DNA of 64,000 bases from Candidatus Uhrbacteria bacterium CG_4_9_14_3_um_filter_50_9 (GTDB lineage: Bacteria > Patescibacteriota > Patescibacteriia > UBA9934 > GWF2-40-263): positions 47,350-111,349 of the forward strand of contig PFWU01000049.1 in the NCBI GenBank assembly GCA_002791295.1, given 5' to 3'. Both the position numbers and the translations under genes were made by a program. Below the pieces are notes generated by a model. The model did not search any database. It had not been told where the DNA came from and saw only the letters and a program-made list of their open reading frames with translations. Below, piece by piece: positions 5,359 through 29,809 of this stretch. Position 1 is the first letter of the stretch. Every line of letters starts with the position of its first letter.

Positions 5359-5360
5359 TT

Positions 5361-8826: not shown

Positions 8827-8860
8827 GCTCCAGCTCACCCACGGGAGGCTGGAGTTTTTG
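8827..8860 (+). terminator. Rho-independent terminator
   Basis: Stem ctccagc / gctggag followed by ttttt. Confidence 0.55.
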
Positions 8861-8865
8861 TTTCT

Positions 8866-13495: not shown

Positions 13496-15541
13496 ATGGC
13501 CATTCACTTAGGATCGTCCGTCTCTGAACTTCCTGGCATTGGAGGGAAAGCAGTTACAGACCTCAAAAACCTCGGGGTTACGTCTGTGCGGGATCTTTTG
13601 TGGTATGTGCCGTTTCGATATGATGATTTTTCGGTGATTCGTGGAGCCGGCGAGGTGCGAGCAGGGGAGACCGTGACTGTGATTGGGACCGTACAGTCGA
13701 TTCGTTCACGACCAGCGAAAAGTCGGAATCTTAAAATCATTGATGGAATTATTCAGGATGAAACAGGTGAGTTGAAAGTCACGTGGTTTAATCAGTCGTA
13801 TCTTGAGCAATCACTCCCACCTGGGACGAAGGTGTCCGTGGCAGGTGAGGTGAATAACAAGTACGGGTTGTCTATGACGAACCCTGTGATTGAGAAGCAT
13901 CAAGTAGGTGTACACACAGGGCGCATTGTGCCGGTGTATGGGCTCACAGGTTCACTCACAATGAAGCGTCTTCGTTCTGCCATGAACGTCGCGCTTCCAG
14001 CCGCAAGTGAGTTTCCTGATTGGATGCCAGGGGACATTGTGTCGACAGAGCGTCTGCCGTCCCTGCCACAGGCACTCAAAGCGATACACTTTCCTGATTC
14101 ACGAAAGGATCTTGAGACCGCTATTGAGCGACTTAAGTTTGATGAGTTGTTTTTGCACCAGCTCATGTTTGCACATGTTCGAAGCGAACGAGCGTTTAAG
14201 CGTGCGGCAGAGATTGAGCTCAATGAAGTTTTTTTGAAAGCGTTTGTCGGTGGGTTACCGTTTACGCTTACCAGCGCACAAAAGAAAGCCGTGTGGGAGA
14301 TTGTGCAGGACATGGCAAAACCACACCCAATGAACCGCTTACTTGAGGGGGATGTGGGGTCGGGTAAAACCGTCGTGTCTGCGGCAGCCGCAGCGAGTGT
14401 GCTTCGTGTGGGTCAGCGGGTTGTGTACCTGGCGCCGACGGAGATTCTCGCAACCCAGCAGCACCAGGCCTTTGTGAAGTTTTTGAATCAGCCCGTCGCA
14501 CTCTTGACGCGTTCACAACAGAAGTTGGGGGAGGAAGAAGTGTCCAAGAGTGATTTAATTGAACAGATTAACACTGGAAACGTTCAGTGCATCGTCGGGA
14601 CGCATGCGCTCTTGCAAGAAAAGGTTCAGCTTGGCGACATTGGCCTCATCATCATCGACGAGCAGCATCGTTTTGGCGTGGAGCAGCGACATGCGCTTTT
14701 AGATCACGACCCAGCACCACACCTCCTCTCTATGACGGCAACGCCGATTCCACGCTCACTGGCTCTCACGGTTTACGGAGATCTTGAACTTTCAATTCTG
14801 AACGAGATGCCAGCCGGACGAAAGCCGGTGGCAACAGCGGTTGTTCCGCATCATCAGCAAGAGGGGATGTGGAGTCATGTGCGTGCTCAGGTGAAGGAAG
14901 GCCGCCAGGTATTCGTCGTCTGCCCACTCATCGATCCGTCAGACAAGCTTGGAGCGAAGTCCGTGGCGGAAGTGGCAAAGGATCTGAAGAAAGGCCCTCT
15001 TAAGGACGTCACGATTGGGGTCTTGCACGGACGGCTCAAGTCAGACGAGAAAGAACAAGCCATCACAGACTTTCGTGATAACAAAATCGATGTGCTTGTT
15101 TCGACGACGGTCGTGGAGGTTGGAGTCGACATTCCAAATGCGAGCGTCATGGTTATCGTCGGAGCAGAACGTTTTGGCCTCGCGCAGCTTCACCAGCTGA
15201 GGGGACGTGTTGGGCGGTCGGATATTCAAAGCTATTGCTACTTGTTGCCAGGGGAGATGTTGACCGGAAACGGTGAGAGCCGGCTTAAGGCCATGGAAGA
15301 GACGGTAGATGGATTCAAACTAGCCGAAAAAGACCTCGAACTCCGCGGCCCAGGAAACGTCTTCGGAAACGCCCAATCAGGCTTCCCAGACTTCCAATTA
15401 GCGACACCAGCGGACGTCGACCTTATGAAGAAAGCAAGAGACTACACCGTGGAATTATTAGAACAAGATCCACATTTAGAGGGGCACCCATTAGTGGCGG
15501 AAAGAATCGAGAGAGAATTCGAAGCAGTTCATTTAGAGTGA
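13496..15541 (+). CDS. recG: ATP-dependent DNA helicase RecG
   Basis: 681 aa with an N-terminal wedge region, Walker A GDVGSGKT, DEQHRFGV (DEQH), and helicase C motifs (QLRGRVGR). Confidence 0.9.
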   Translation: MAIHLGSSVSELPGIGGKAVTDLKNLGVTSVRDLLWYVPFRYDDFSVIRGAGEVRAGETVTVIGTVQSIRSRPAKSRNLKIIDGIIQDETGELKVTWFNQSYLEQSLPPGTKVSVAGEVNNKYGLSMTNPVIEKHQVGVHTGRIVPVYGLTGSLTMKRLRSAMNVALPAASEFPDWMPGDIVSTERLPSLPQALKAIHFPDSRKDLETAIERLKFDELFLHQLMFAHVRSERAFKRAAEIELNEVFLKAFVGGLPFTLTSAQKKAVWEIVQDMAKPHPMNRLLEGDVGSGKTVVSAAAAASVLRVGQRVVYLAPTEILATQQHQAFVKFLNQPVALLTRSQQKLGEEEVSKSDLIEQINTGNVQCIVGTHALLQEKVQLGDIGLIIIDEQHRFGVEQRHALLDHDPAPHLLSMTATPIPRSLALTVYGDLELSILNEMPAGRKPVATAVVPHHQQEGMWSHVRAQVKEGRQVFVVCPLIDPSDKLGAKSVAEVAKDLKKGPLKDVTIGVLHGRLKSDEKEQAITDFRDNKIDVLVSTTVVEVGVDIPNASVMVIVGAERFGLAQLHQLRGRVGRSDIQSYCYLLPGEMLTGNGESRLKAMEETVDGFKLAEKDLELRGPGNVFGNAQSGFPDFQLATPADVDLMKKARDYTVELLEQDPHLEGHPLVAERIEREFEAVHLE

Positions 15542-19198: not shown

Positions 19199-20509
19199 TT
19201 ATAGCTCTTTAATGTTACTCACTCGTTTAACTTCGATCTTTTCTGTTTTTATATCTGCTTTCGTTGGGATGGCGGCGCACTCAATGCCGAGTCGGCTGGC
19301 TTCAGTGAGTCGTTTCTGGGTGAGGGGAGCGCTGCGGACTTCGCCACCGAGACCGACTTCGCCGATGTAGACGGTGGGGGTGGTGTTGGCTTGGTTTGTG
19401 AAGGCGCTTTTGATTGCCGCGCAGATGGCTAGGTCCACGGCGGGTTCTTTGAGCTTCATTCCGCCGATCACGTTCACGTAGACATCTTTATCGCCGAGTT
19501 TCAGGCCGGCGCGTTTACTCAAAATGGCGACGAGCATCTGGAGCCGGTTTTGATCAAACCCAGACGCACGACGCACGGGGGTGCCGTAAAAGCTGTTTTC
19601 AACCAGCGCCTGAACTTCTACCAGAAAGACGCGTGACCCTTCGATCGTTGCGGCGATCACGGAGCCAGGCGTATTCGCGCGTTCTTCTAGGAACCTGGCA
19701 GATGGATTCTCAACAGCGATCAGGCCTTTCTCGGTCATCTCAAACACGCCGATTTCGTCCGTGGCTCCGAAACGATTTTTGTTTGCGCGAAGCATACGGT
19801 AGGCGTGGACCGGGTCACCCTCGATTTCGATTACGACGTCGACGAGGTGTTCGAGCGTCTTCGGTCCTGCGATGGATCCGTCTTTGGTGACTTGTCCAAC
19901 AAGAAGAATAGAAACGCCTGTACGTTTAGCTGTTTCAAGAAGAAGGGCTGTGGCGTAACGCACGAGGGCAGGGGAGCCGGTGGTACTGTCGAGTTCGTCA
20001 GACGTGAGGGTCTGCACAGAATCGATGATGACGAGCGCAGGTTTTTCTTTTTCAATGGTTTGGGCGAGTAACTCTACGGGGAGTGGATCGAGGATACGCA
20101 CATGGTCCGTAGGTTTTTCGATGCGGTGAAAACGTGCGGCGAGCTGGCCTGGGGATTCTTCACCTGAGATGTAGAGCACCGTGTCCCGTATCGAACCGGC
20201 GATCGCAGCGACGATCGTTGACTTTCCAATACCTGGCTCGCCTGAGATGAGGACCAGCGATCCTTTTACGATTCCACCCCCGAGCACACGGTTGATTTCC
20301 GGGTCGCCAGTTGGAAGACGTTCGTGTTCATTTTGTTTTGCGACATCCTTGAGCGGTTGGCTCGCTGTTGTTTTTACAGGAGTCGAAGAAGACGAGCGTT
20401 TTTTGCTCGTCCCTCCTTGTTCTTCTGTGAGGGTTCCCCACTTGGCACATTCCGTGCATCGCCCAGCCCACTTGGGGAATTGCGAGTCACAATTGCTACA
20501 GATAAACAT
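19199..20509 (-). CDS. radA: DNA repair protein RadA/Sms
   Basis: N-terminal C4 zinc finger (CSNCDSQFPKWAGRCTECAKW), Walker A GEPGIGKST, KNRFG motif, and a Lon-protease-like C-terminal domain. The start was moved to the internal ATG (MFICSNC); the upstream part of the ORF-track call overlaps the next gene. Confidence 0.9.
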   Translation of the reverse strand: MFICSNCDSQFPKWAGRCTECAKWGTLTEEQGGTSKKRSSSSTPVKTTASQPLKDVAKQNEHERLPTGDPEINRVLGGGIVKGSLVLISGEPGIGKSTIVAAIAGSIRDTVLYISGEESPGQLAARFHRIEKPTDHVRILDPLPVELLAQTIEKEKPALVIIDSVQTLTSDELDSTTGSPALVRYATALLLETAKRTGVSILLVGQVTKDGSIAGPKTLEHLVDVVIEIEGDPVHAYRMLRANKNRFGATDEIGVFEMTEKGLIAVENPSARFLEERANTPGSVIAATIEGSRVFLVEVQALVENSFYGTPVRRASGFDQNRLQMLVAILSKRAGLKLGDKDVYVNVIGGMKLKEPAVDLAICAAIKSAFTNQANTTPTVYIGEVGLGGEVRSAPLTQKRLTEASRLGIECAAIPTKADIKTEKIEVKRVSNIKEL

Positions 20510-20510: not shown

Positions 20511-21728
20511 CTAGTTACAGGTTGATGACATTTTTGGTTTTTCAAAGTGCCAAGGCTCAGACCGAAGGTTGCAGAAACCCTCAGCACGCATCGCATCAAT
20601 GAGTGTTCCCTGACAATCATCTTCTCTACAAGCATCTCGATCAGCAAGACATTCGTCTTGAGAAAGACATTGTGCTCCACCCTTGGTTCCCCAGATATCG
20701 AGTGCACGGCCTGTTGTATGCGGACAATTGGCTGGATCGTTGTTGCGCAGAATACAGGTGGTTGGTCTCCCTGGTTTTGGATTGCAGGTGGCTGACCCTG
20801 CTGGATTTTGACAGTTTTTTGCAATGAGTGCTTTTTGTTTTTCCACACTTCGATAACTTGAGGAAATGGCAATACCATATCCCTTATCAGCCATGGTCGC
20901 AGCAGCCGCTTCAATATCTGTGACAAGTTCATCTGGAATGCTCGAAACACCTCCGCCGGTAATATTTGAACCACTGGCTGTGCTCAGGCTTGTGGCCACA
21001 GTTCCTGTGACAGAATCATCCTCACTTTCTTCTCCATCAATCGCTTCAAACTTAATGTTTGTAAGAGTTGGGGTTTCAAGTGAGACGAGCTGTGGGTTTA
21101 CAAGATACAAAATTGAGTAGGTGCTTAACAAAAGGACTAATCCTATGACCGCATTTTTGATGCGTTCTTTCGCCTTTCCCACATCCCCATGACCACCTGC
21201 AAAGGCATACTGAAGGCCACCAATCATGATCATGATAATGGCAATAAGAATTGAGATGCCAATCAGATAGACATAGATTGCAGAAACATAGAGTTCAAAA
21301 AAGTTGAAATCAAGGACACTGTCACCACCCGCTGTGACACTTTTTGTGACGGAAAAATTACCCACGTTTAATCCAGGAATATCAACATTCAAGGTTGGGG
21401 TAATCGTCTTGGCTGTATTTGAAGTCGTAGACGTTGAGGTGGCGGTTGGGTCGGTATTTGACAGACCTGCGCCAGAGCAGGTGGTCGTGCACTCAATAGA
21501 GGCCGAGGTGGTTGTGCAGGTACAGAATCCATCATCTCCAACGCTCTGAAGTGTCTCTCCAAACGAGGCACAGGCGGCGGTGCACTCGTCCTCGGAATTT
21601 TCTGAGGAACCGACACCATTTTCATCGTAGCAGGAGCAGTCAGCAAGGACGGGGGTTGCGGAAAAAAGGAGTCCTGCCAAAACAACAGAAAAAAGGAGTG
21701 TACCGATAGTGAACTGTTGTCGTTTCAT
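20511..21728 (-). CDS. Secreted Cys-rich protein with a VirB2/TrbC-like two-helix membrane hairpin, fused to a peptidase M15 (VanY/LAS-type) peptidoglycan hydrolase-like domain
   Basis: Signal peptide MKRQQFTIGTLLFSVVLAGLLFSATPVLA. A 9-Cys region (CSCYDENG...CTTTCSGAG). The hairpin YVYLIGISILIAIIMIMIGGLQYAFAGG-KAKERIKN-AVIGLVLLLSTYSILYLV. The C-terminal SSYRS...HTTGRALDIWG is typical of LAS/M15 zinc peptidases. Confidence 0.55.
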   Translation of the reverse strand: MKRQQFTIGTLLFSVVLAGLLFSATPVLADCSCYDENGVGSSENSEDECTAACASFGETLQSVGDDGFCTCTTTSASIECTTTCSGAGLSNTDPTATSTSTTSNTAKTITPTLNVDIPGLNVGNFSVTKSVTAGGDSVLDFNFFELYVSAIYVYLIGISILIAIIMIMIGGLQYAFAGGHGDVGKAKERIKNAVIGLVLLLSTYSILYLVNPQLVSLETPTLTNIKFEAIDGEESEDDSVTGTVATSLSTASGSNITGGGVSSIPDELVTDIEAAAATMADKGYGIAISSSYRSVEKQKALIAKNCQNPAGSATCNPKPGRPTTCILRNNDPANCPHTTGRALDIWGTKGGAQCLSQDECLADRDACREDDCQGTLIDAMRAEGFCNLRSEPWHFEKPKMSSTCN

Positions 21729-21729
21729 A

Positions 21730-23025
21730 TTAGTAGTCTAAACATGTCAGTAAATCTCCTCCACGCTCCCAAGTCATATGTACGTGTGGACCTGAGGTGT
21801 TTCCTGCTTGTTGATAATCTTGGCAGCTGCAAGATTGTGCAGCGTAAGGGTCTGTACAGGCTGTTCCACCTACATTACACCAACCGTATTTTGCAGAGTA
21901 CCAATTAGCCGGTGGGTTCTGGTCGTCACAACAGTTCCCCCCAATGTGACCAATGGTGGCTCCCTGTTCTACCGTGACGCCATCTAATACCTTTCCGCTG
22001 TCATTAATAAAGTCCTTCATGTGACAGATAACCAAGCTTGCTCCAGCTGCGTCTCCTGTCCCTGTGATGGTCACACGGTTTCCGCAACGGTTCTTATCAT
22101 CCGTTTGTTTTTCATACGTGAGTGTTCCACTGATTGGTGCTTTAATTTCAAGTCCCCATCCAGCGGCAAAGTCCAAGTTGTTGATTTTTTTGTAATCTCC
22201 GTTTGCCCCATCATCAAACCAGTGGTGGTTTCCACAGTTAGGCTGCCCACCGGTGGGGGAGATCACGGTTTGTGAGATGTCGCAGGTTCCGTCATCCTTA
22301 GCTGTTGCGACGATTGCGTCGCATGTGGAGCGACTTATGTTTGAGGGGACTCCTTCATCTCCAGATGCAGCTAAGTCTAATTTGATCTCGTTTACCTCAA
22401 GTAATTTGAGCGCATCAAAGAAGACAAGGTTTGGGTTTACGAGAAAGAGAATCATGAACACGCTTAGTAAGAGAGAGAATCCAATGATGGCGTTGTTGAT
22501 GCGCTTCTTGGCCTTTGCCGTATCTCCACCACCTGCAGCAAAGGTGTACTGGAGGCCACCAATCATGACCATAATAATCGCAAGAAAGGCACCTATTCCG
22601 ACTAAGTATTGGTAGACACTGGAGACGTAGTCACCCAACCAGCTAATCTCAAGGTTGCCTTTTTTTGAAATAACGTCTGTAAACGAAAAACCAGGAATAT
22701 CAACGTTGAGGTTTGGTTCAACGTAGTCTTTCGTGTCCGTGACGGTGGGTGGTTCATGGGAGTAGCCTGCTGCAGCACAAGTGGTTTCGCAGGTAATGGT
22801 TGCAGATGTATTACTTTCTGGACAATCACAGACACCATCTTCCTCTGTCGCTCCTCCTTCACCACAGGCGGTCACACATTCCGCTGTTCCATCCAGAGAT
22901 GAGCTTAAGCCACCATCTTCGTAACAGGTGCAAGCGAAGGCAGTATTCGCACTCCCGAGCAACATGAAACCAACCATCAAGAATGTTGCGAGGATGTGTT
23001 TAAGAAAAAAAGACATGATCCACAT
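21730..23025 (-). CDS. Paralogous secreted Cys-rich protein with VirB2/TrbC-like hairpin fused to a peptidase M23 (LytM-type) domain
   Basis: Same architecture as 20511..21728: signal peptide, a 9-Cys region, and the hairpin YQYLVGIGAFLAIIMVMIGGLQYTFAAGG-TAKAKKRINN-AIIGFSLLLSVFMILFLV. The C-terminus carries an M23 signature (...GATIGHIGG...SGPHVHMTWE). Confidence 0.6.
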   Translation of the reverse strand: MWIMSFFLKHILATFLMVGFMLLGSANTAFACTCYEDGGLSSSLDGTAECVTACGEGGATEEDGVCDCPESNTSATITCETTCAAAGYSHEPPTVTDTKDYVEPNLNVDIPGFSFTDVISKKGNLEISWLGDYVSSVYQYLVGIGAFLAIIMVMIGGLQYTFAAGGGDTAKAKKRINNAIIGFSLLLSVFMILFLVNPNLVFFDALKLLEVNEIKLDLAASGDEGVPSNISRSTCDAIVATAKDDGTCDISQTVISPTGGQPNCGNHHWFDDGANGDYKKINNLDFAAGWGLEIKAPISGTLTYEKQTDDKNRCGNRVTITGTGDAAGASLVICHMKDFINDSGKVLDGVTVEQGATIGHIGGNCCDDQNPPANWYSAKYGWCNVGGTACTDPYAAQSCSCQDYQQAGNTSGPHVHMTWERGGDLLTCLDY

Positions 23026-23678
23026 TAAGGAGTGTTTGCAAGCAGATCCTCGATCATCTCGATGAGTTGCTCAGAGCTCACGGCACCTACGAGGATTTCA
23101 TCTCCGATAAAGAGGGTGGGGGTGGAAGTGAGTCCAAGGCCAAGAGCTTCTTCGTAGTCTTTTTTTACGATTGGAAGGGTCTCTCGGTCGTCGTAGCAGG
23201 ATTGGAATTTTTCCACATCGAGCCCAAGCGTTGTTGCGATTTGTAAAAACTGACTTTCAGAAAGATAACTCTGTCGCACAAAGAGTTCATCATGGTACCC
23301 CCAAAATGTTCCTTGTCGATCGGCACAGTGTGCGGCAATGGCTGCGGGGGTTGATAATTCGTGTAGCGATTCATTTGGAAGATCTTTCCACACCACTTGT
23401 ACGTCGTCTGGATAGCTGCTGAGAATGGTTTGAAGCGTGCTGCTAAGGGTCTTGCAGGGACCGCACTCAAAATCACCATACTCAATGATGGTCACCGTTG
23501 GTTCTTCAGCCCCCTTTGCTGGATTCACAAACGTGACGGTGGGTTCGCTCACCTCTTGGATGTCATCTGTGTACGCATCGTAGTTTATTTCAACAGGTCG
23601 CACGCGCAGCCAAAAGAAGATAAATACAAGTGCTGAGAGCATGCCGAAGGTGAACAATGTTAAATAACGGTGTTGCAT
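23025..23678 (-). CDS. Membrane-anchored thioredoxin-fold thiol:disulfide oxidoreductase (DsbA/BdbD-like)
   Basis: N-terminal TM helix and a CGPC active-site motif (DFECGPCKTL) in a ~170-aa thioredoxin-like domain. The start overlaps the upstream gene. Confidence 0.65.
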   Translation of the reverse strand: MQHRYLTLFTFGMLSALVFIFFWLRVRPVEINYDAYTDDIQEVSEPTVTFVNPAKGAEEPTVTIIEYGDFECGPCKTLSSTLQTILSSYPDDVQVVWKDLPNESLHELSTPAAIAAHCADRQGTFWGYHDELFVRQSYLSESQFLQIATTLGLDVEKFQSCYDDRETLPIVKKDYEEALGLGLTSTPTLFIGDEILVGAVSSEQLIEMIEDLLANTP

Positions 23679-23679
23679 A

Positions 23680-24894
23680 TTATCGCAGGTACATCAGTTG
23701 AAGTTGACCGTTATCGTTTGTGAAATAAAGTTTGGTGCCGTCGTCGCTGACCCAGAGACCACTGATCACTGTGTCATCCTCAGGAATTGCGAGAAGACTT
23801 GCGCGACCGGTCTTCACATCAATGTAGTAAATGACATCCGGTCCAACATCAGAGAGGGATCGTTGTAAGCCAGCACTTGATTTAAGGGCTGTGGGGACGG
23901 CGCAGTAGACTTCAGAGCTTGAGTGCCATGTACATTTGTCTGCCCACGTGTTGAGTCCGAGGCTATGACGATCATTTCCCATGGTGTTTGACGTTGCCTC
24001 TACCAACCAGATGAGAGGCTTGAAATCACTATATTCACCCGCAACGGAATAAAGAAGTTGTTTTCCGTTTGGAGACCAGAGGGAAATAAAATCAAGTCCC
24101 TCAACCGTGAGGCCTTTGAAGTTTTCTTCGTTTTTTCCAACAGGAATTATGAAGCGTCGATCAAAGCCACCTTCGCGTGATTCAACGGTGTCTGCGAACG
24201 CGACCACCTGGTCATTTGGGGACCAGTTGACGTCCACCTTGCTTTCGTTTTGACCAAGAGCGGCGATGCTTTCTGTTTGTGAACCATCATCACTTGCAAT
24301 GACGAGCCATCGGTTATTCGGATCAAGTCCAATGCTTTTGGCAATGATTTCGTCTGTGACGGGCGAGAAGTCAAAGTCTTCCCAATGGTCAGGGAGGGTG
24401 ACCTGATCTTCTGTTTCAAAATCGTAGATAATGTTCGATCCGTCTGGAAATTCAAGTAAGGCTTTTTCTGAGTCCTTGTTCCATACGACTGTTTCTACTT
24501 CTGGGAATTGGGTTGAGCTCATGGCAACGACTTCACCGTCTTCGTTGATGGTATAGAAGCGTCCATCTGTTGGATCGTAGTAGTTGACATCGTTTCCGTT
24601 GATGACCGTGTCCGTCACTTCTGAAGTGGTGAGAGTTGTGGTGGCTGTCACGCCTCCACGCGCAACGGTGTCTGCCTCGGTAAGACCAACACCTTCGCCT
24701 GTTGTGTCATCGTCTCCCCTCACACCACCTTCTCCAGAAGACGGAAGCACTCCCGTGAGTTCTTCTTCCGTATCTTCAACGGTTGCTTCAGGAGGGGCAC
24801 TGCGGAAAAAAAGAGCATAGAGGATGAAGGCAAAGGCAAAGACGGAGAGAACGAATCCGATGATGAGAAGAATGCGTTTAAGTCGTTGGCTCAT
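23680..24894 (-). CDS. Membrane-anchored protein with PD40/TolB-like beta-propeller repeats
   Basis: N-terminal TM anchor. Repeated W-S-P-N/D-G motifs (VNWSPNDQVVAF, LWSPNGKQLLYS, WVSDDGTKLYF). Confidence 0.5.
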   Translation of the reverse strand: MSQRLKRILLIIGFVLSVFAFAFILYALFFRSAPPEATVEDTEEELTGVLPSSGEGGVRGDDDTTGEGVGLTEADTVARGGVTATTTLTTSEVTDTVINGNDVNYYDPTDGRFYTINEDGEVVAMSSTQFPEVETVVWNKDSEKALLEFPDGSNIIYDFETEDQVTLPDHWEDFDFSPVTDEIIAKSIGLDPNNRWLVIASDDGSQTESIAALGQNESKVDVNWSPNDQVVAFADTVESREGGFDRRFIIPVGKNEENFKGLTVEGLDFISLWSPNGKQLLYSVAGEYSDFKPLIWLVEATSNTMGNDRHSLGLNTWADKCTWHSSSEVYCAVPTALKSSAGLQRSLSDVGPDVIYYIDVKTGRASLLAIPEDDTVISGLWVSDDGTKLYFTNDNGQLQLMYLR

Positions 24895-24903
24895 AGAAAA
24901 AGG

Positions 24904-25887
24904 TTAGAAGCTCCCAATCATTATAGCAGCAACACAGGAACTTCCTGGAGTTGAAATAACAGAGAGGGCAAAATTGAGGGGATTTTGCATGAAGGCGGCG
25001 TAATCGTACATCAGACAAAATCCAAGAAAGAAGAGACAGAAGCCTAGGATGACGATCGCAATATCTGCGGCGATGACCAGCCCATCGAGGATGACCGCGT
25101 TTGGATCGACTGGCATTGGGATCGGATCCCAGGAGAGAGGAGAGATAAATGGATCTTTTCCTTTTCGGAATTTTTTTCCATAAAAAAGTTCAAGGTTGAG
25201 CCATCCAAACGTAAACGTGTAGATCAGGATGTCTACAATCATTGAGACACCAACGGTTCCGATATCAAATGAAGCTGCAATGAGGTCAATAACCCAAATG
25301 ACTCCGCGTTTGAATGCCGCTTTTGCTCGTTTTTTTATTGCACTTCTGAGTCGTGCCATTTGTTCATCTTTGAGCTTCTCCAGTTCATCTTTTGCAGATT
25401 GGTTCTTCGTTCGCGCCATCTGTAACTTGAGGTTGGAAAGTTGGGCTCTGAGTTGGTCGACCGGGGTTGGGTCGACTTCCTGTGTGCCTCTTGGTCGATT
25501 GGATTCTGGCGTTTCATCTTGTCGGCGACGCTCTGCGGCCTGCGCTTCTGGGGTTTGAAGGTCTGGACGTGGACCAAAGGCTGGAGCCTGAGGATCCAAC
25601 CCTCGGCGGGATCCGAAGGAGTTGCTGACGCTGTTCGCAAGTTGAGTCGCTTTGTTTTTGCTTCGGCGTGCATCCGTCGTTGAACGATTTCTTGATCCGG
25701 CCGCACGATCACGTTGGTTTAAAAGAAGTTCTCTTGATGATCCACCCGGAGTTGTCCCACGCATTTCACGATTTCGTTGTGCTGCTCTTGGTGATGAGGT
25801 TTTTGCTCTGCGTGAAGCAACGCGAGCTCGTGTGAGTTGCTCGCGTTTGCTTGGGATTGCTGCTGCGGTACCTCCTGCCGGTGCCAT
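24904..25887 (-). CDS. Hypothetical protein with basic disordered N-terminal half and 4-TM C-terminal half
   Basis: 327 aa. The N-terminal ~190 aa are Arg/Ser/Thr-rich. The C-terminus has four hydrophobic helices. First gene of the minus-strand operon. Confidence 0.45.
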   Translation of the reverse strand: MAPAGGTAAAIPSKREQLTRARVASRRAKTSSPRAAQRNREMRGTTPGGSSRELLLNQRDRAAGSRNRSTTDARRSKNKATQLANSVSNSFGSRRGLDPQAPAFGPRPDLQTPEAQAAERRRQDETPESNRPRGTQEVDPTPVDQLRAQLSNLKLQMARTKNQSAKDELEKLKDEQMARLRSAIKKRAKAAFKRGVIWVIDLIAASFDIGTVGVSMIVDILIYTFTFGWLNLELFYGKKFRKGKDPFISPLSWDPIPMPVDPNAVILDGLVIAADIAIVILGFCLFFLGFCLMYDYAAFMQNPLNFALSVISTPGSSCVAAIMIGSF

Positions 25888-25890: not shown

Positions 25891-28377
25891 TTAGGTCTTG
25901 GCCTTGGTTACGGTGATCACGTTTCCTTTGAGTCGAATATTCAGTGACTGTGGGCTATCGTTCTTTGTGAGTCGTTCTGCAATCTTGTGTTCAATATGCT
26001 GCTGGATATGCTGACGGATATTGCGTGCGCCGTACTGTGTGTCCGCCATACCTGAAAGGTGGGGGACAAGGGCCTTGTGAATGTTGATGTGAAGCCCCTG
26101 TTCTTTCAGTCGATGGATGAGTTCATCAAGTTGTTTTTGGGTGATTTGGTGCAGGACATCTTTTGAAAGTGGCTGGAACACGCAGGTGTGGTCGATGCGG
26201 TTCACAAGCTCAGGGCGGAAGCGTTCCTCAAGTTCCTTGCGGAGATCTTGGTTGAGGACAATGGTTCGATCCTCTTCCGTACCCATGAATCCAATTCCAT
26301 CCTTGGTAAAGCGCTCAAGACCTACATTAGACGTCATGACCACAATCGTGTTGCGGAAGTTCACCTTGCGCCCCGTAGCGTCTGTCAGCTCACCTTCCTC
26401 AAGAATTTGAAGGAGTAAGTTTTGAACATCACGATGAGCTTTTTCAATCTCATCGAAAAGGACGACCGAGTACGGACGCTGCTTCACCCGATCGGTCAGG
26501 TTCGCAGATTCTCGGTACCCCACGTATCCAGCTGGAGCGCCGATGAGTTTTGACATGGTAAATCCTTCTGAATATTCAGACATGTCGAGTCGGATGAGGT
26601 TTTTGCGGTTATGAAAGAGATTGTCTGAGATCGATTTTGCAAGTTCTGTTTTTCCCACACCAGAGGGACCCAAAAAGAGGAATGACGCCAATGGGCGATG
26701 TGGGTGGGCAACACCCGTCTTGGCACGTTTAATCGCACCCGTCACGATATGTAGCACGGCCTCTTGTCCAAGCACACGTTCAGAGAGAAAGCCCAGAAGG
26801 TTACTGAGTTTATTTGCGTTTTCAAGCAAAATATCTTCAACAGGAATTCCTGTGATTCTTGAAACCACTCCAGCGACTTGGTCTGCTTGGATGATGGGGA
26901 CGCATTCTTGTTCCGCTGGGAGGTCGCCCTTGGCCATGGCGGCATGGGTTCGTGCTTCTTGCTCTTTGAGACGGATGGCATCGATGAATCGTTCTTCGAC
27001 CACGGCTTGGCGCTTTGAGTTTCGGATCGATGAAAGTTCTTGTTCAAGATGACGTTGTTTGTACTGCGGTGTTGGGTCCGTGCTTTTTACGCGAACAGAT
27101 GCGGCTGCTTCGTCAATGAGGTCGATTGCTTTGTCGGGGAGTTGCTTGTCTTGAATGTATCGGTCTGACATGTGGACTGCTTGTTCGAGGGCTTCTGGGC
27201 TGATACGGACACGGTGGAAGGTTTCGTAGTAGGGGGCAATACCCTGAAGGATTTCTAACGCCTTTTCTTTTGAAGGTTCTTCTACGTACACACTTTGGAA
27301 GCGTCGTTCTAACGCACTGTCAGATTCGATATTCTTTTTAAACTCTGTTGGGGTGGTGGCACCAATGCAGCGTATCTCACCGCGCGCAAGCGCAGGCTTT
27401 AAAATATTTGCGGCATCCATAGAACCAGAGGCAGCCCCTGCGCCAACAATGGTGTGGATTTCATCGATGAACAAGAGGATGTCGTCATTGCTCTTCACTT
27501 CGTCAACAATTTGCTTCAGGCGCCCCTCAAACTCCCCGCGGTACATGGTTCCAGCAATGAGCATGGCCATGTCCACAGCGAAGATGCGCTTGTGCGCAAG
27601 CGCAGGTGGGACCGTTCCCTCCACGATCATCTTGGCGAGACCCTCCACAATGGCGGTTTTTCCAACGCCCGGTTCCCCAAGGAGCAGGGGATTGTTTTTT
27701 GTACGTCGACAGAGAATTTCCATGACCCGTTCGATTTCGGCTTCGCGTCCAATCACCGGATCAATTTCTTTTTGTGCCTCAAGGGTTGTCAGTTCTCGGC
27801 CAAAGTACTCAAGCGCTTGCAGTGTTTTTTCCTCCTGGATCTCTGTGGCCTGTCTGTCTGTTTCTTGCATCATGAGTCCTTTGCCGTCCTGAGTCATCGT
27901 GCTTGCAAGGTCAGGAAATTTCGACGTACTTTTTAGCACAATGGAAAGCTGTGAGCGGATTTCTTTGAGGTCTGTTTTCGTTTGTTCAAAAAACGTCGTG
28001 AGGACAGGTGTGTTCGTTTGCAGCATGCCTGAGAGCAAGTGCTCAGTTCCCACATAGCGATGGCCGTAGATATTCGCTGTGAGAACAGCTTTCTCCACAA
28101 TGCGTTTCGCATCATCTGAAAGGTGAAGGGTCAGATCGGAAGGTGTGTTGTTCGCACTGACCTGAGCTTTTGCTCCGATGAGTTTTCTTAAGGCCGTTGC
28201 CTTCACTCCTGTTTTTTTCAAGATTTCTGCCGCAATGCAGCCTTTCTGTGTCCCAAGCGCCCAGAGGAGATGCTCAGGTTGAATCGTCTGTTCATTTGTC
28301 TCAACAACGAAACAGAGCGCCCGTGTGAGGACGTCCTTTAAGTGGCTGGAAAATTTGTCGACGATGTCATAGCTCAT
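25891..28377 (-). CDS. Clp/Hsp100 AAA+ chaperone ATPase (ClpC/ClpB family, short middle domain, ClpC-like)
   Basis: Clp_N repeats; NBD1 Walker A GEPGVGKTAIVEGLA; NBD2 Walker A GPSGVGKTELAKS; sensor and arginine-finger regions. The start was moved to the internal MSYDIV, which overlaps the htpX stop in an ATGA arrangement. Confidence 0.85.
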   Translation of the reverse strand: MSYDIVDKFSSHLKDVLTRALCFVVETNEQTIQPEHLLWALGTQKGCIAAEILKKTGVKATALRKLIGAKAQVSANNTPSDLTLHLSDDAKRIVEKAVLTANIYGHRYVGTEHLLSGMLQTNTPVLTTFFEQTKTDLKEIRSQLSIVLKSTSKFPDLASTMTQDGKGLMMQETDRQATEIQEEKTLQALEYFGRELTTLEAQKEIDPVIGREAEIERVMEILCRRTKNNPLLLGEPGVGKTAIVEGLAKMIVEGTVPPALAHKRIFAVDMAMLIAGTMYRGEFEGRLKQIVDEVKSNDDILLFIDEIHTIVGAGAASGSMDAANILKPALARGEIRCIGATTPTEFKKNIESDSALERRFQSVYVEEPSKEKALEILQGIAPYYETFHRVRISPEALEQAVHMSDRYIQDKQLPDKAIDLIDEAAASVRVKSTDPTPQYKQRHLEQELSSIRNSKRQAVVEERFIDAIRLKEQEARTHAAMAKGDLPAEQECVPIIQADQVAGVVSRITGIPVEDILLENANKLSNLLGFLSERVLGQEAVLHIVTGAIKRAKTGVAHPHRPLASFLFLGPSGVGKTELAKSISDNLFHNRKNLIRLDMSEYSEGFTMSKLIGAPAGYVGYRESANLTDRVKQRPYSVVLFDEIEKAHRDVQNLLLQILEEGELTDATGRKVNFRNTIVVMTSNVGLERFTKDGIGFMGTEEDRTIVLNQDLRKELEERFRPELVNRIDHTCVFQPLSKDVLHQITQKQLDELIHRLKEQGLHINIHKALVPHLSGMADTQYGARNIRQHIQQHIEHKIAERLTKNDSPQSLNIRLKGNVITVTKAKT

Positions 28378-29255
28378 AGCATGCCTCTCAGTTTTGCGAT
28401 ACGTTCTTCGATGGGTGGGTGGGTTGAGAACCAACCTTCAAATTTTTTGGCAACATGCGGATCAAAGGGGTTCGCAAGAAACATGTGTGCAGTTGCGTGA
28501 TTTGCTTTTTTCATTGGCGCATCATGCTTGGCAATTTTTTCAAGCGCAGAGGCAAGGCCTTCTGGATACCGTGTCAGTAGTGATGCAGAGGCATCCGCGA
28601 GATACTCACGTGAACGGGAGACAGCAAGTTTGATGAGTTCTGCAAAGAAGGGGGAAAGAATGGCAAGGATAATTCCCAGAATGAGCAAGGGAAGGGCTCC
28701 TTTGTTGTCGCGGCCCCGGCTGCCATAGAGGAAGGTACGCATGAGTACATCGGAAAGGAGGAGTACGACACCGACAAGGACGACCACGATGGTCATCACG
28801 CGAATATCGTAGTTTTTTACATGGGACATTTCGTGTGCGAGCACTCCTTCAAGTTCCTGATCTGTCATGATGTTCATGAGACCGGTGGTGACCGCAATGG
28901 CTGCGTGTTCAGGATCTCGACCTGCGGCAAAGGCGTTGGCTGATGCGTCCTGGATGACATACACCTTTGGTGTTGGCACGCCCGCCGTGATCGCAAGGTT
29001 CTCGACCATGCGATACAGCCTTGGGTTGTCAGCTTTTTGAATCTCCTTTGCCCCCGCAGTTGCTAGTGCGACTTTGTCGCCTTTGAAATACGCAACAAGG
29101 TTCATGATGGTCGCGATCATGACAGCGAGAATGATGCCGGCATTGCCTGAGCCGCCGTATTCTCCAAGGACCCAACCGAGTAAGCAGATCACGATCGTAA
29201 AGATTGCGATCAAAAACCAGGTCTTGCGTTTATTTGCGTCGATTTGTGTGTACAT
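28374..29255 (-). CDS. htpX: Zinc metalloprotease HtpX (peptidase M48)
   Basis: HEMSHV (HExxH) and N-terminal TM helices, 293 aa. Confidence 0.85.
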   Translation of the reverse strand: MYTQIDANKRKTWFLIAIFTIVICLLGWVLGEYGGSGNAGIILAVMIATIMNLVAYFKGDKVALATAGAKEIQKADNPRLYRMVENLAITAGVPTPKVYVIQDASANAFAAGRDPEHAAIAVTTGLMNIMTDQELEGVLAHEMSHVKNYDIRVMTIVVVLVGVVLLLSDVLMRTFLYGSRGRDNKGALPLLILGIILAILSPFFAELIKLAVSRSREYLADASASLLTRYPEGLASALEKIAKHDAPMKKANHATAHMFLANPFDPHVAKKFEGWFSTHPPIEERIAKLRGML

Positions 29256-29257
29256 GT

Positions 29258-29809
29258 TTAGAAGCTCACCTGAGGTGCTTCATTCACTTCGTCTGGGGCG
29301 TCAAAGAAGTCTCGGTCTTTGAATCCAAACATGCCAGCGATCAAGTTGGTTGGGAAAACTTGAAGCTTGGTGTTGAAGTCACGGACGTTTCCGTTATAAA
29401 AGCGGCGTGAAGCTTGAATCTTGTCTTCTGCGTCTGTGAGCTCGTGCTGCAGGTGAAGAAAGTTTTCTGATGCACGGAGCTGTGGGTAGTTTTCAGAAAC
29501 AGCAAAAAGAGATTTCAATGCTCCTGTCAGCATGTTCTCTGATGCGGCGTGTTCTTCCATTGAGGTTGCCCCCATGGCAGCTGTTCGCGCTTCTGTTACT
29601 TTTGTGAAGACTCCTTCCTCGTGCTTCGCATACCCCTTCACGGAATTCACAAGGTTTGGGATGAGGTCATAGCGACGCTTCATCTGCACTTCGATATCAG
29701 ACCAAGCTTCGTCTGTGCGGTTACGAGATTGGATAAGGCCGTTGTATGTTAGAATAAGCCACACAGCCGCAACGCCGAGGACGATCACGAGTATCCAAAT
29801 GAGTTCCAT
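29258..29809 (-). CDS. lemA: LemA family protein
   Basis: N-terminal TM helix plus conserved LemA sequence (LTYNGLIQSRNRTDEAWSDIEVQMKRRYDLIPNLV). Adjacent to htpX, as is common. Confidence 0.8.
   Translation of the reverse strand: MELIWILVIVLGVAAVWLILTYNGLIQSRNRTDEAWSDIEVQMKRRYDLIPNLVNSVKGYAKHEEGVFTKVTEARTAAMGATSMEEHAASENMLTGALKSLFAVSENYPQLRASENFLHLQHELTDAEDKIQASRRFYNGNVRDFNTKLQVFPTNLIAGMFGFKDRDFFDAPDEVNEAPQVSF

What the first reader, a model, noticed from the sequence alone, without database searches (positions are those of the whole stretch)
20511..25887. Operon of two paralogous secreted Cys-rich proteins (pilin-like hairpin plus peptidoglycan hydrolase), DsbA-like oxidoreductase, PD40 propeller and basic membrane protein, ending in radA
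Seen in sequence. Two adjacent paralogs share this architecture:
- a signal peptide;
- a ~70-aa domain with 9 conserved Cys (CxCY[DE][DE]xG...EC[TV]xAC...C[TD]C...C[TE]TTC[SA][GA]AG);
- an LNVDIPG motif;
- a two-helix hydrophobic hairpin (IGGLQY[AT]FA[GA]GG-KAK-[IV]IG[LF]-LLLS) that resembles VirB2/TrbC-type pilin cores;
- a C-terminal cell-wall hydrolase domain, M15/LAS-like in one (SSYRS...HTTGRALD) and M23/LytM in the other (SGPHVHMTWE).

A membrane-anchored CGPC thioredoxin-fold oxidoreductase is encoded in the same operon, immediately upstream of the two paralogs. It is plausibly the disulfide catalyst for the Cys-rich domains. Further upstream are a TolB-like PD40 propeller and a membrane protein with a ~190-aa basic disordered N-terminus.

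Fusion of pilin-like anchors to two different peptidoglycan hydrolases is unusual. It could be a surface apparatus for remodelling the organism's own wall (T4SS or pilus passage), or for attacking or attaching to a host cell wall (inference).
Basis: partly seen in the sequence, partly recalled or inferred. Interest (0 to 1): 0.6.

Follow-up and report, generated by a model that had tools for sequence, protein, structure and literature searches.

The report
Pilin-anchored cell-wall hydrolases beside a T4SS
Two neighbouring genes of an uncultivated ultrasmall bacterium (Candidatus Uhrbacteria) each fuse a secretion-system pilin module to a cell-wall-cutting enzyme, with a dedicated disulfide-forming enzyme encoded next to them, which suggests how these host-dependent bacteria could cut through cell walls at the point of contact.

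Summary
Window 20511-23025 (minus strand) encodes two paralogs, 41% identical over their first 251 residues. Each has:
- a signal peptide;
- an 8-Cys (not 9) ectodomain;
- an LNVDIPG motif;
- a two-helix hairpin that passes Pfam's threshold for T4SS_pilin (PF18895);

A membrane-anchored CGPC DsbA lies directly upstream.

It contains no pilin gene of its own.

- **Synteny:** the gene order is conserved in about 40 Uhrbacteria genomes.
- **Second locus:** a second DsbA plus pilin-fusion pair recurs elsewhere in the same genomes.
- **Family:** the same N-terminal module carries SLT, NlpC/P60, M23, M15, amidase, glucosaminidase or C39-like domains.
- **Short relatives:** the hairpin model also hits the short pilin arrays inside Saccharibacteria T4SS clusters.

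Best reading: disulfide-stabilised wall hydrolases built on a VirB2-like scaffold, doing the VirB1 job for this T4SS. Function is inferred, not shown. I found no paper describing the fusion. New variant of a known kind; interest 0.6.

The parts
20511..21728 (-). Paralog A, 405 aa: signal peptide, 8-Cys ectodomain, PF18895 hairpin module, LAS/VanY-type zinc peptidase
21642..21728 (-). A residues 1-29: Sec-type signal peptide (LLFSVVLAGLLFSATPVLA, then DC)
   Evidence: Hydrophobic segment 11-29. Helix 2-22 in the model. Cleavage site inferred, not predicted with a dedicated tool.
21471..21641 (-). A residues 30-86: small disulfide-rich ectodomain with 8 Cys (CxC, Cx3C, CxC, Cx3C)
   Evidence: Cys positions. 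pLDDT about 92 with small strands and two helices. C31, C33, C49, C53 and C80 are at least 90% conserved in 60 homologs. No significant solved-structure match.
21087..21398 (-). A residues 111-214: conserved LNVDIPG-plus-hairpin module (helices 143-176 and 183-210, loop GGHGDVGKAKERIKN)
   Evidence: PF18895 at residues 150-207. Helices. This is the most conserved part of the family: 0.57 mean top-residue frequency against about 0.2 in the flanks.
20514..20942 (-). A residues 263-405: LAS (Hedgehog/DD-peptidase fold) zinc peptidase with SSYRS, HTTGRALD and EPWH motifs and 10 Cys
   Evidence: Motifs align to LdcB SGYRS / SEHQTGLAMD / EPWH.
21730..23025 (-). Paralog B, 431 aa (428 aa if started at Met4): same N-terminal architecture with a C-terminal M23-like domain
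   Evidence: ORF. PF18895 36.7 bits and Peptidase_M23 26.2 bits. 26 ortholog clusters, many with precomputed PF01551. Gene call of 428 aa.
22771..22932 (-). B residues 32-85: 8-Cys ectodomain paralogous to that of A
22426..22716 (-). B residues 104-200: LNVDIPG-plus-hairpin module
   Evidence: Hairpin HMM 137.6 bits. PF18895 at residues 134-193.
21733..22248 (-). B residues 260-431: M23-like domain with a Cys-rich insertion. D285, H360, H414 and H416 are invariant; H268, D271 and H335 are at least 90% conserved. The canonical first His of HxxxD is replaced (KINNLD).
   Evidence: Alignment A2. Profile hit to M23 structures 3slu/6muk at E 0.013, with residue-level alignment.
23025..23678 (-). 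Membrane-anchored DsbA-family thiol:disulfide oxidoreductase (CGPC at residues 72-75). Its stop codon overlaps the first ATG of B (TAATG).
   Evidence: Thioredoxin_4 E 6.5e-23 and DSBA E 6.1e-17. TM segment 6-24 and Cys positions. Conserved position upstream of pilin fusions.
23680..24894 (-). TM-anchored protein with an acidic disordered linker (35-81) and a 7-bladed beta-propeller, highly conserved
   Evidence: AlphaFold pLDDT 81. Generic propeller matches only. 893 homologs; the best 120 are at least 53% identical over full length.
24904..25887 (-). Membrane protein with a basic, variable N-terminal region (about 190 aa) and a conserved C-terminal TM region carrying a GKDPFISPLSWDPIPMPVDP loop; no family match
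19199..20509 (-). radA/sms, 1 nt downstream of paralog A
   Evidence: TIGR00416 E 3.8e-145. Gene call of 436 aa. Follows the pilin fusions in all type I loci.
25891..29809 (-). Upstream part of the same co-directional row: LemA (29258-29809), HtpX/M48 (28374-29255), ClpB/ClpC-like AAA+ (25891-28434)
   Evidence: Conserved in relatives.
311..9564 (+). Patescibacteria-type T4SS cluster with no pilin gene: polytopic 936-aa membrane protein (VirB6-like by position only), 548-aa unknown, PrgI (4927-5358), TraC-like (5361-6062), VirB4 (6049-8244), 192-aa TM protein (8241-8819), ComF (8866-9564)
   Evidence: P-loop_TraG E 6.9e-27. PrgI E 6.3e-9 and ComF-type domains. TraC-like PF26593 in orthologs. 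The hairpin HMM finds only A and B in the window.
13496..15541 (+). recG, lying between the T4SS cluster and the pilin-fusion row as in relatives
   Evidence: synteny.

Best explanation
A and B are extracytoplasmic peptidoglycan hydrolases built on a VirB2-like pilin scaffold, and they belong functionally to the Patescibacteria-type T4SS encoded 11 kb away.

Proposed steps:
1. Each protein is exported by Sec and its signal peptide is removed.
2. The two hydrophobic helices insert as a hairpin. The lysine/arginine-rich loop faces the cytoplasm, and both the 8-Cys N-domain and the C-terminal zinc peptidase lie outside the membrane.
3. The co-transcribed membrane-anchored DsbA oxidises their 18 and 20 cysteines.
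4. The conserved hairpin module docks the enzymes to, or lets them be taken up into, the pilin-based T4SS structure.
5. Stem-peptide and cross-link cleavage (LAS/M15 type in A, M23 type in B) is therefore delivered exactly where the apparatus must cross a wall. This is the VirB1 job, done by enzymes physically joined to the VirB2-like unit.

Shown here: domain composition, topology-compatible sequence features, fold of the A peptidase, gene linkage, and family modularity. Inferred: disulfide formation by this DsbA, association with the T4SS, catalytic activity, and which wall (own or host) is cut.
For: Domains and fold:
- Domain assignments.
- Fold of the A peptidase.

Hairpin as a T4SS element:
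- PF18895 is the family used to call the VirB2-like pilins of Patescibacteria T4SSs. Six such genes are essential in Southlakia epibionticum.
- A hairpin HMM built from the fusions hits arrays of 5-8 short pilins next to VirB6-like/PrgI/TraC-like/VirB4/ComF genes in Saccharibacteria and other Patescibacteria loci, at E 1e-6 to 1e-15.
- The hairpin module is the conserved core of the family: 0.57 against about 0.2 top-residue frequency across 112 representatives. This is more than a passive anchor would need.

Context:
- The window's T4SS cluster has no pilin gene, and A and B are the only pilin-domain ORFs in 64 kb.
- About 40 Uhrbacteria genomes share the order DsbA, fusions (1-3 copies), RadA, then RecG on the opposite strand. 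Wherever the flank reaches far enough, ComF, the 192-aa TM protein and VirB4 follow (8 loci plus 2 JGI contigs).
- This matches the published note that ABY1-class T4SS loci carry comF, recG and radA.

Hydrolase role:
- The same N-module carries C39_2 16, NlpC/P60 14, M23 10, SLT 9, VanY 9, M15_4 5, glucosaminidase 2, Amidase_2 2 and 3D 2 of 112 representatives. These are the domain types of VirB1-like T4SS hydrolases, including SLT itself.
- In Southlakia, separate essential genes next to virB4 encode a Hedgehog/DD-peptidase-fold protein (SEML1_0007) and a lysozyme plus cysteine-peptidase protein (SEML1_0006). Components that are separate there are fused here.

DsbA:
- A DsbA homolog lies directly upstream of the fusions in 46 of 58 loci, including an independent second locus with a 4-nt gene overlap.
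- The fusions have a median of 6 plus 11.5 Cys. The short pilins have 0-2 Cys and no adjacent DsbA.
Against: - No experiment exists for any member of this family.
- The fusions are not inside the T4SS cluster. They sit in a row that starts with the envelope quality-control genes LemA, HtpX and ClpB, and in this genome recG, an ECF sigma/vWA pair and LysE lie between the fusions and the cluster.
- All synteny evidence comes from one lineage (Uhrbacteria-type), where conserved gene order may be inherited rather than functional.
- Direct homology to classical VirB2 is weak. hhalign against six MPF_T VirB2 proteins gives probability 22.7%, P 9e-4; a profile search of solved structures finds no pilin; structural hairpin matches are generic.
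- B lacks the canonical first His of the M23 HxxxD motif, so its activity is uncertain.
- A 140-170-aa domain on each subunit is sterically awkward for a homopolymeric pilus.
Confidence: 0.55

Rival explanations
1. Housekeeping autolysins. A and B remodel the organism's own wall for growth and division, the hairpin is only a membrane anchor of pilin ancestry, and the T4SS plays no part.
For: - The fusions lie in a conserved block headed by LemA, HtpX and ClpB rather than in the T4SS cluster.
- M15, M23, NlpC/P60, amidase and SLT are the normal autolysin repertoire.
- The neighbouring propeller is highly conserved, like a core envelope gene.
- Synteny evidence is confined to one lineage.
Against: - The hairpin module is the most conserved part of the proteins, not merely hydrophobic.
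- Its short homologs are T4SS-cluster genes.
- The window's T4SS cluster has no other pilin.
- In Southlakia, LAS-fold and lysozyme-type hydrolases are essential T4SS-cluster genes.
Confidence: 0.25
2. Strong version: A and B are true polymerising pilins. The T4SS pilus, or its tip, is built from subunits that display wall-degrading enzymes and Cys-rich knobs on its surface, and it bores through the host cell wall.
For: - Both termini of a VirB2-type hairpin face outside, so N- and C-terminal domains would be displayed. This rests on established knowledge of F- and T-pilus structures, not on a test here.
- There is a linker of about 50 residues between TM2 and the peptidase.
- The hairpin superposes on the Aeropyrum conjugative pilin 8dfu at 2.5 A over 70 of 84 residues.
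- No other pilin gene is found near the T4SS.
- The family offers an enzyme for every bond class in peptidoglycan.
Against: - Crowding: two ectodomains per subunit.
- The structural match is no better than to many unrelated helical hairpins.
- Short, divergent pilins elsewhere in the genome cannot be excluded.
- No filament data exist for Uhrbacteria.
Confidence: 0.15
3. B, and possibly other members, is a catalytically inactive LytM-type module that binds peptidoglycan or activates another hydrolase, as EnvC and NlpD do, rather than cutting it.
For: - In the profile alignment to M23 structures, the canonical HxxxD His is replaced (RLHTGID against KKIKNLD).
- The Pfam score is below the gathering threshold.
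Against: - D285, H414 and H416 are invariant and H335 is at least 90% conserved.
- An at least 90% conserved NHHWFD motif 17 residues upstream could supply the missing ligand.
- Degenerate LytM domains usually lose several ligands, not one. This is from my own knowledge.
Confidence: 0.1
4. A phage-derived lysis cassette, with the hairpin acting as a holin-like element fused to an endolysin.
For: The best structural matches of the A peptidase are the phage endolysins Ply500 and LysB4.
Against: - An N-terminal signal peptide and ectodomain precede the hairpin.
- There are no phage genes in the neighbourhood.
- No relative is found in IMG/VR viral contigs.
- The chromosomal position is stable across about 40 genomes.
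Confidence: 0.02

Closest known systems
VirB2-like pilin arrays (Pfam PF18895) of Patescibacteria T4SSs, e.g. SEML1_0014-0019 of Southlakia epibionticum (Wang et al. 2023, PMC10633639; Quinonero-Coronel et al. 2025, PMC12102498)
   Same: - Same Pfam family and the same signal-peptide-plus-hairpin core.
- Tandem paralogs.
- The same type of T4SS (VirB4, PrgI, TraC-like, VirB6-like, no relaxase seen here) and the same association with comF.
   Different: - Those pilins are 95-185 aa and stand alone, have 0-2 Cys, sit inside the T4SS cluster and have no DsbA next to them.
- A and B are 405 and 431 aa and carry an 8-Cys N-domain and a C-terminal peptidase.
- A and B lie 11 kb from virB4 and are preceded by DsbA.
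VirB1-type cell-wall hydrolases of monoderm T4SSs (PrgK of pCF10, TraG of pIP501, CwlT of ICEBs1, TcpG of pCW3). In Southlakia, the essential SEML1_0006 (lysozyme-like x2 plus cysteine peptidase) and SEML1_0007 (C-terminal Hedgehog/DD-peptidase fold) next to virB4.
   Same: - Membrane-tethered extracytoplasmic peptidoglycan hydrolases associated with a T4SS.
- The same domain repertoire across the family (SLT, NlpC/P60-CHAP-like, M23/LytM, LAS).
   Different: - Known examples are anchored by a plain N-terminal TM helix, carry two or three hydrolase domains on one chain, and are separate from any pilin.
- Here there is one hydrolase per chain, several paralogs, a pilin-family hairpin as anchor, an extra Cys-rich N-domain, and DsbA coupling.
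Classical VirB2/TrbC pilins (PF04956) with the adjacent virB1-virB2-virB3 gene order of MPF_T systems
   Same: - Signal peptide, two hydrophobic helices and a short basic loop.
- A pilin gene beside a wall-hydrolase gene in the canonical operon.
- Sub-threshold to significant PF04956 matches in family members, best E 6.7e-8.
   Different: - Profile-profile similarity is weak.
- There is no evidence of cyclisation or of polymerisation.
- The hydrolase and the pilin are one polypeptide, and the hydrolases are peptidases rather than the lytic transglycosylase of VirB1.
BdbD/DsbA-dependent folding of secreted or pilus proteins. Examples from my own knowledge, not tested here: B. subtilis BdbDC for ComGC, and thioredoxin-fold TrbB/TraF of F-type T4SSs.
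   Same: A dedicated thiol:disulfide oxidoreductase encoded with the surface-structure proteins it is presumed to oxidise.
   Different: - The oxidoreductase is paired gene-by-gene with each pilin-fusion locus (two loci per genome).
- The substrates carry 18-40 cysteines.
- No DsbB/VKOR partner was seen in the window.

Membership tests
Pfam PF18895 T4SS_pilin (VirB2-like pilins of Patescibacteria) | Match to the family model above the curated gathering score | tested here: met
   A 38.7 bits and B 36.7 bits against a cut-off of 26.6. 109 of 112 family representatives match.
Pfam PF18895 T4SS_pilin (VirB2-like pilins of Patescibacteria) | Signal peptide followed by a two-helix hydrophobic hairpin with a short basic loop | tested here: met
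   Hydrophobic segments at 11-29, 151-169 and 192-210 in A; loop GGHGDVGKAKERIKN. Helices 143-176 and 183-210 at pLDDT above 90.
Pfam PF18895 T4SS_pilin (VirB2-like pilins of Patescibacteria) | Small stand-alone protein (about 100-190 aa) | tested here: not met
   405 and 431 aa, with folded domains on both sides of the hairpin. The short relatives are 91-226 aa.
Pfam PF18895 T4SS_pilin (VirB2-like pilins of Patescibacteria) | Encoded within or next to the virB4 cluster | tested here: inconclusive
   The start of paralog A lies 13.5 kb, and its 3' end 12.3 kb, from the end of virB4 (8244); about 11 kb separates it from the end of the cluster (ComF, 9564). It is on the opposite strand, with comF, tRNAs, recG, an ECF sigma/vWA pair, LysE and radA in between. 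The arrangement is conserved in about 40 genomes.
Pfam PF18895 T4SS_pilin (VirB2-like pilins of Patescibacteria) | Assembles into an extracellular filament | not testable with these tools
   Needs microscopy or proteomics.
Classical TrbC/VirB2 pilins (PF04956) | Significant sequence or profile similarity to VirB2/TrbC | tested here: inconclusive
   - PF04956 E 0.024 for A.
- 7 of 112 relatives at E 1e-3 or better, best 6.7e-8.
- hhalign of 121 hairpins against six MPF_T VirB2: probability 22.7%, P 9e-4, 63 columns in register; reversed control P 0.23.
- No pilin found in a PDB profile search.
LAS / M15 VanY-VanX-LdcB zinc peptidases | Family model match and Hedgehog/DD-peptidase fold | tested here: met
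   - VanY 25.7 bits against a cut-off of 25.
- Foldseek E 7.5e-5, probability 1.0.
LAS / M15 VanY-VanX-LdcB zinc peptidases | Catalytic motifs SxHxxGxAxD and ExxH, plus the upstream S-x-x-R | tested here: met
   CPHTTGRALD, EPWH and SSYRS in A align to SEHQTGLAMD, EPWH and SGYRS of LdcB and are conserved in the family consensus. In A the residue before the His is Pro rather than Ser; the zinc-binding His and Asp are kept.
LAS / M15 VanY-VanX-LdcB zinc peptidases | Peptidase activity and bond specificity | not testable with these tools
   Carboxypeptidase and endopeptidase (Ply500-like L-Ala-D-Glu) activities cannot be told apart from sequence.
Peptidase M23 (LytM/lysostaphin type) | Family model match above the gathering score | tested here: not met
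   26.2 bits against a cut-off of 28.7, E 9.3e-6. Orthologs reach E 7.5e-9 and 1.2e-9. Profile against PDB M23 structures gives E 0.013.
Peptidase M23 (LytM/lysostaphin type) | Zinc and catalytic residues HxxxD, H, HxH | tested here: inconclusive
   D285, H414 and H416 are invariant and H335 is at least 90% conserved. The His of HxxxD is replaced at the aligned position (KINNLD). An at least 90% conserved NHHWFD lies 17 residues upstream.
DsbA / Thioredoxin_4 thiol:disulfide oxidoreductases | Thioredoxin fold with inserted helical domain, a CxxC active site, and extracytoplasmic location | tested here: met
   Thioredoxin_4 E 6.5e-23 over the full profile and DSBA E 6.1e-17. CGPC at residues 72-75 and a single N-terminal TM helix. 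Orientation is inferred.
TolB (Tol-Pal system propeller) | Match to the TolB equivalog model and Tol-Pal gene context | tested here: not met
   TIGR02800 scores 20.8 bits against a cut-off of 343. No tol or pal genes nearby. The fold search gives only generic 7-bladed propellers.
VirB1-type T4SS wall hydrolases of monoderms | Membrane-tethered peptidoglycan hydrolase encoded with, and required by, a T4SS | tested here: inconclusive
   Hydrolase domains and tethering are met. Genomic linkage is loose but conserved. A requirement for the T4SS is not testable here.

The most novel reading that the evidence does not exclude
In Uhrbacteria-type Patescibacteria the T4SS filament, or its tip, is assembled from pilins that each carry an enzyme. 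The result would be a polymer displaying a complete peptidoglycan-degrading toolkit (glycosidases, amidase, and several endopeptidase classes) plus disulfide-knotted knobs. It would drill through the host cell wall. Because it sits with comF, recG and radA, it would serve to import host DNA or nutrients. Dedicated DsbA enzymes would be needed because the whole surface is disulfide-stabilised.
Probability: 0.15. Interest if true: 0.85.

Novelty: new variant of a known kind. Interest (0 to 1): 0.6.

Why it matters
The T4SS is the one envelope machine shown to be essential for the host-dependent life of a cultivated Patescibacterium, and what it does is unknown. The current literature notes that most Patescibacteria with VirB2-like pilins lack a recognisable VirB1, and concludes that pilus biogenesis may not need one.

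The fusions described here offer another answer for a large lineage: the wall-cutting enzymes are attached to the pilin-like module itself. This gives a concrete, testable handle on three points:
- how an ultrasmall epibiont breaches a wall, whether its own or its host's;
- a set of small, expressible enzyme domains whose bond specificity could indicate the type of host wall;
- an example of gene-by-gene pairing between a DsbA and heavily disulfide-bonded surface proteins in a monoderm-like bacterium.

If the proteins turn out to be ordinary autolysins, the result is still a tidy case of a pilin module reused as a membrane anchor.

Tried and rejected
- **Profile of the hairpin against PDB sequences.** No pilin was found.
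- **hhalign against VirB2.** The 10-sequence hairpin alignment against six MPF_T VirB2 gave probability 2%. A 121-sequence alignment raised this to 22.7%, P 9e-4, which is still not proof.
- **8-Cys N-domain.** No significant solved-structure match, and disulfide pairing could not be read because coordinates are not returned.
- **Propeller.** Only generic WD40-type matches and no sequence relative in PDB, so no specific function can be proposed.
- **Basic membrane protein.** No Pfam or NCBIfam match.
- **Promoter and terminator scan.** Counts are at chance level. The best promoter-like site lies upstream of LemA, which is suggestive only.
- **Phage origin.** No relatives in IMG/VR.
- The search for related loci with the full-length alignment A1 failed for lack of a conserved stretch, so a hairpin-only alignment was used. 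The AFDB50 fold library was unavailable.
- **Literature.** Five searches found no description of pilin-hydrolase fusions or of a DsbA link in Patescibacteria. Subscription-only papers were not searched.
- **Weak third hairpin hit.** The hit at 38054-38386 (E 0.16) is a single-TM coiled-coil protein, not a pilin.

Full report
**What is there.** On the minus strand, the window carries a tightly packed row of co-directional genes: LemA (29258-29809), HtpX (28374-29255), a ClpB/ClpC-like AAA+ protein (25891-28434), a membrane protein with a basic N-terminus (24904-25887), a TM-anchored beta-propeller (23680-24894), a DsbA-family oxidoreductase (23025-23678), paralog B (21730-23025), paralog A (20511-21728), radA (19199-20509) and a LysE-type exporter (18542-19192). 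Gaps are -4 to 9 nt as far as radA and 45 nt before LysE. The finding's coordinates cover the five central genes correctly. The propeller protein is 100% identical to a protein of Candidatus Uhrbacteria bacterium CG_4_9_14_3_um_filter_50_9 (lineage), so the window comes from that organism or a very close relative.

**The two paralogs.** A and B share 41% identity over their first 251 residues (E 3e-52) and nothing after that. Both have these features:
- A hydrophobic N-terminal signal sequence.
- A small domain with eight cysteines arranged CxC, Cx3C, CxC, Cx3C.
- The motif LNVDIPG.
- Two long hydrophobic helices joined by a glycine- and lysine-rich loop (GGHGDVGKAKERIKN in A).

The helices match Pfam T4SS_pilin (PF18895) above its gathering score in both proteins. 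They also give weaker matches to TrbC/VirB2 and to pilin-like conjugation proteins of Mycoplasma ICEs and to TcpD. An AlphaFold model of A built on 60 homologs is confident (pLDDT 89). It shows the small N-domain, a hairpin of helices 143-176 and 183-210, a linker of about 50 residues, and a compact C-terminal domain.

**The C-terminal enzymes.**
- *Paralog B.* The C-terminal domain is M23-like. It scores E 9.3e-6 but falls below Pfam's cut-off. A profile of 24 orthologs hits solved M23 peptidases at E 0.013, and orthologs reach E 1e-9. D285, H414 and H416 are invariant and H335 is at least 90% conserved. However, the histidine of the canonical HxxxD motif is replaced at the aligned position. 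An at least 90% conserved NHHWFD motif lies 17 residues upstream. I therefore file B as M23-like with an unresolved first zinc ligand.
- *Cysteines.* Both enzyme domains are also cysteine-rich, with 10 Cys in A and 12 in B. The count of 10 recurs in almost every VanY-type ortholog.

The same window holds a Patescibacteria-type T4SS cluster on the plus strand at 311-9564:
- a 936-aa polytopic membrane protein;
- a 548-aa protein of unknown function;
- PrgI (4927-5358);
- a TraC-like protein (5361-6062);
- VirB4 (6049-8244, P-loop_TraG E 6.9e-27);
- a 192-aa TM protein (8241-8819);
- ComF (8866-9564).

recG follows at 13496-15541. An HMM of the hairpin module, searched with all filters off against every ORF of at least 40 codons in the window, finds only A and B. 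A weak third hit is a single-TM protein. So this T4SS cluster has no pilin gene of its own, and the only pilin-family genes within 64 kb are the two fusions.

**Conservation of the arrangement.** Gene neighbourhoods of homologs and a scan of one genome per species gave 65 loci.
- *Type I loci.* About 40 Uhrbacteria-type genomes have LemA-HtpX-ClpB-(TM protein)-propeller-DsbA, then one to three long pilin fusions, then RadA, followed on the other strand by RecG. In the 8 loci and 2 JGI contigs whose flanks reach far enough, ComF, the 192-aa protein, VirB4, the TraC-like protein and PrgI follow. This matches the published remark that T4SS loci of the ABY1 class commonly include comF, recG and radA. 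That Uhrbacteria fall in that GTDB class is from my own knowledge.
- *Type II loci.* The same genomes have a second locus elsewhere, in which another DsbA gene directly precedes another long pilin fusion of 430-700 aa. These proteins have 10-12 Cys before the hairpin and 16-32 after it, and no recognisable C-terminal domain. In the window's own organism this is P0150, whose gene overlaps its DsbA gene by 4 nt.
- *DsbA pairing.* In all, 46 of 58 loci with long fusions have a DsbA homolog immediately upstream.
- *Short pilin arrays.* In Saccharibacteria, Komeilibacteria and other Patescibacteria the same hairpin HMM hits arrays of five to eight short pilins (91-226 aa, 0-2 Cys). These lie next to VirB6-like, PrgI, TraC-like, VirB4 and ComF genes, with no DsbA nearby.

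**The family.** The first 215 residues of A find 10,481 cluster representatives at E 1e-3 or better and 1,135 at E 1e-10 or better among 1.84 billion proteins. Nearly all of the best 150 are 280-670 aa with the module at the N-terminus. A Pfam census of 112 of them gave:

| Pfam family | Members of 112 |
|---|---|
| T4SS_pilin | 109 |
| Peptidase_C39_2 (papain-like) | 16 |
| NlpC/P60 | 14 |
| M23 | 10 |
| SLT | 9 |
| VanY | 9 |
| M15_4 | 5 |
| Glucosaminidase | 2 |
| Amidase_2 | 2 |
| 3D | 2 |
| GDSL lipase | 1 |
| TrbC/VirB2 (PF04956) | 7 (best E 6.7e-8) |

The 80 pilin ORFs of the genome loci give the same picture. The module is thus a carrier for enzymes that between them cut every class of bond in peptidoglycan, including the SLT domain that defines VirB1. 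Across these very different proteins the LNVDIPG-hairpin module is by far the most conserved part, with a mean top-residue frequency of 0.57 against about 0.2 for the regions on either side.

**Comparison with what is known.**
- VirB2-like PF18895 pilins, often in arrays, are described for Patescibacteria T4SSs. The six pilin genes of Southlakia epibionticum are essential for epibiotic growth.
- The same cluster in Southlakia contains two essential hydrolase genes next to virB4. SEML1_0006 has two lysozyme-like domains and a cysteine peptidase. SEML1_0007 has a C-terminal domain with the Hedgehog/DD-peptidase fold, which is the fold of A's enzyme.
- In canonical MPF_T operons, virB1 (lytic transglycosylase) and virB2 are adjacent genes.
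- Monoderm T4SSs use membrane-anchored multidomain hydrolases such as PrgK, TraG and CwlT (cited).
- The window's proteins therefore combine in one chain two components that are separate, but linked, in every described system.
- The survey paper states that most Patescibacteria with VirB2 homologs lack VirB1, and infers that pilus biogenesis may not need it. It does not mention fusions, and five literature searches found no description of them or of a DsbA link. Automated annotation has occasionally labelled single members with both functions (JGI name of P0021).

**How it most likely works.**
- *Shown:* the domain order, a sequence pattern that fits a topology with both ectodomains outside (hydrophobic hairpin with a K/R-rich loop), the fold of A's enzyme, the linkage to DsbA, and the conserved neighbourhood.
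- *Inferred:* after Sec export and hairpin insertion, the DsbA oxidises the 18 and 20 cysteines. The conserved hairpin module brings the enzymes to the T4SS, either by docking with its membrane components or by being taken into a pilin-based structure. The peptidases open the wall where the apparatus has to pass. I put this at 0.55.
- *Main rival (0.25):* these are ordinary autolysins that reuse a pilin-derived anchor. The LemA-HtpX-ClpB context and the single-lineage nature of the synteny evidence speak for that. The strong conservation of the hairpin and the T4SS context of its short relatives speak against it.
- *Strong version (0.15):* the proteins polymerise and the pilus itself displays enzymes that drill into the host wall. 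The evidence does not exclude this, and it would be the most interesting outcome.
- *Inactive regulatory role for B:* possible (0.1).
- *Phage-type lysis cassette:* effectively excluded.

**Limits.**
- Homology of the hairpin to classical VirB2 is only weakly supported by direct comparison. It rests mainly on the Pfam family, the PF04956 hits in relatives and the gene context of the short homologs.
- The propeller and the basic membrane protein are conserved members of the row, but no function could be assigned.
- Absence of short pilins elsewhere in the genome could not be checked.
- Nothing here is experimental.

**Verdict.** The feature is a new variant of known kinds: VirB2-like pilins and VirB1-like hydrolases, fused and paired with DsbA. 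It is widespread in one Patescibacteria lineage and, as far as I could search, undescribed. Interest 0.6.

Noticed in passing
window 311-9564 (+): A complete-looking Patescibacteria-type T4SS cluster without a pilin gene and without a recognisable coupling protein or relaxase. It contains a 936-aa polytopic membrane protein, a 548-aa unknown, PrgI, a TraC-like protein, VirB4, a 192-aa TM protein and ComF. The 936-aa and 548-aa proteins have no Pfam match.
   Followed up: partly
L080:6197-8370 (same organism as the window); type II loci L021, L028, L030, L034, L038, L045, L046, L048, L054, L064, L070 and others: A second module of DsbA plus a pilin fusion elsewhere in the genome (P0150, 479 aa, 4-nt overlap with its DsbA gene, followed by uvrA). 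These proteins have 10-12 Cys before and 16-32 Cys after the hairpin, and a C-terminal domain of about 250 aa with no Pfam match. It may be an adhesin or a tip domain.
   Followed up: partly
window 23680-24894 (-): The TM-anchored 7-bladed propeller is far more conserved than its neighbours: the best 120 homologs are 53-78% identical over full length, and two Cys are invariant. It always sits between the basic membrane protein and DsbA. Its function is unknown.
   Followed up: partly
window 15624-18069 (+): An ECF-type sigma factor (170 aa) overlaps a 646-aa protein that has an N-terminal TM segment and a vWA domain, which looks like an anti-sigma arrangement. Together with LysE, this pair is inserted between recG and radA compared with most relatives.
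   Followed up: no
window about 31306-31868 (-): A RelB antitoxin and YafQ/ParE-type toxin pair, according to the gene calls on the matching contig L007 (1149-1711).
   Followed up: no
window 10473-11105 (-): A 210-aa membrane protein with four CxxC zinc-ribbon-like motifs separated by TM segments, lying between the T4SS/ComF region and two tRNA-Ser genes. No confident family match.
   Followed up: no
window 32001-34000 and 62001-64000: G+C rises to 0.55 and 0.60 against about 0.48 elsewhere. No rRNA or other Rfam family is found there. ORFs 32065-33219 (384 aa) and 62593-63906 (437 aa) have no Pfam match.
   Followed up: no
window 45418-47334 (-) and 56567-59743 (-): Large ORFs of 638 and 1058 aa with no Pfam match at E 1e-5 or better.
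   Followed up: no
L067-L073 (Saccharibacteria, Komeilibacteria and 'Babeliales'-labelled MAGs): Arrays of 5-8 short PF18895-type pilins regularly end next to a comF gene. comF therefore travels with the pilin or T4SS genes across distant Patescibacteria, not only in Uhrbacteria.
   Followed up: no
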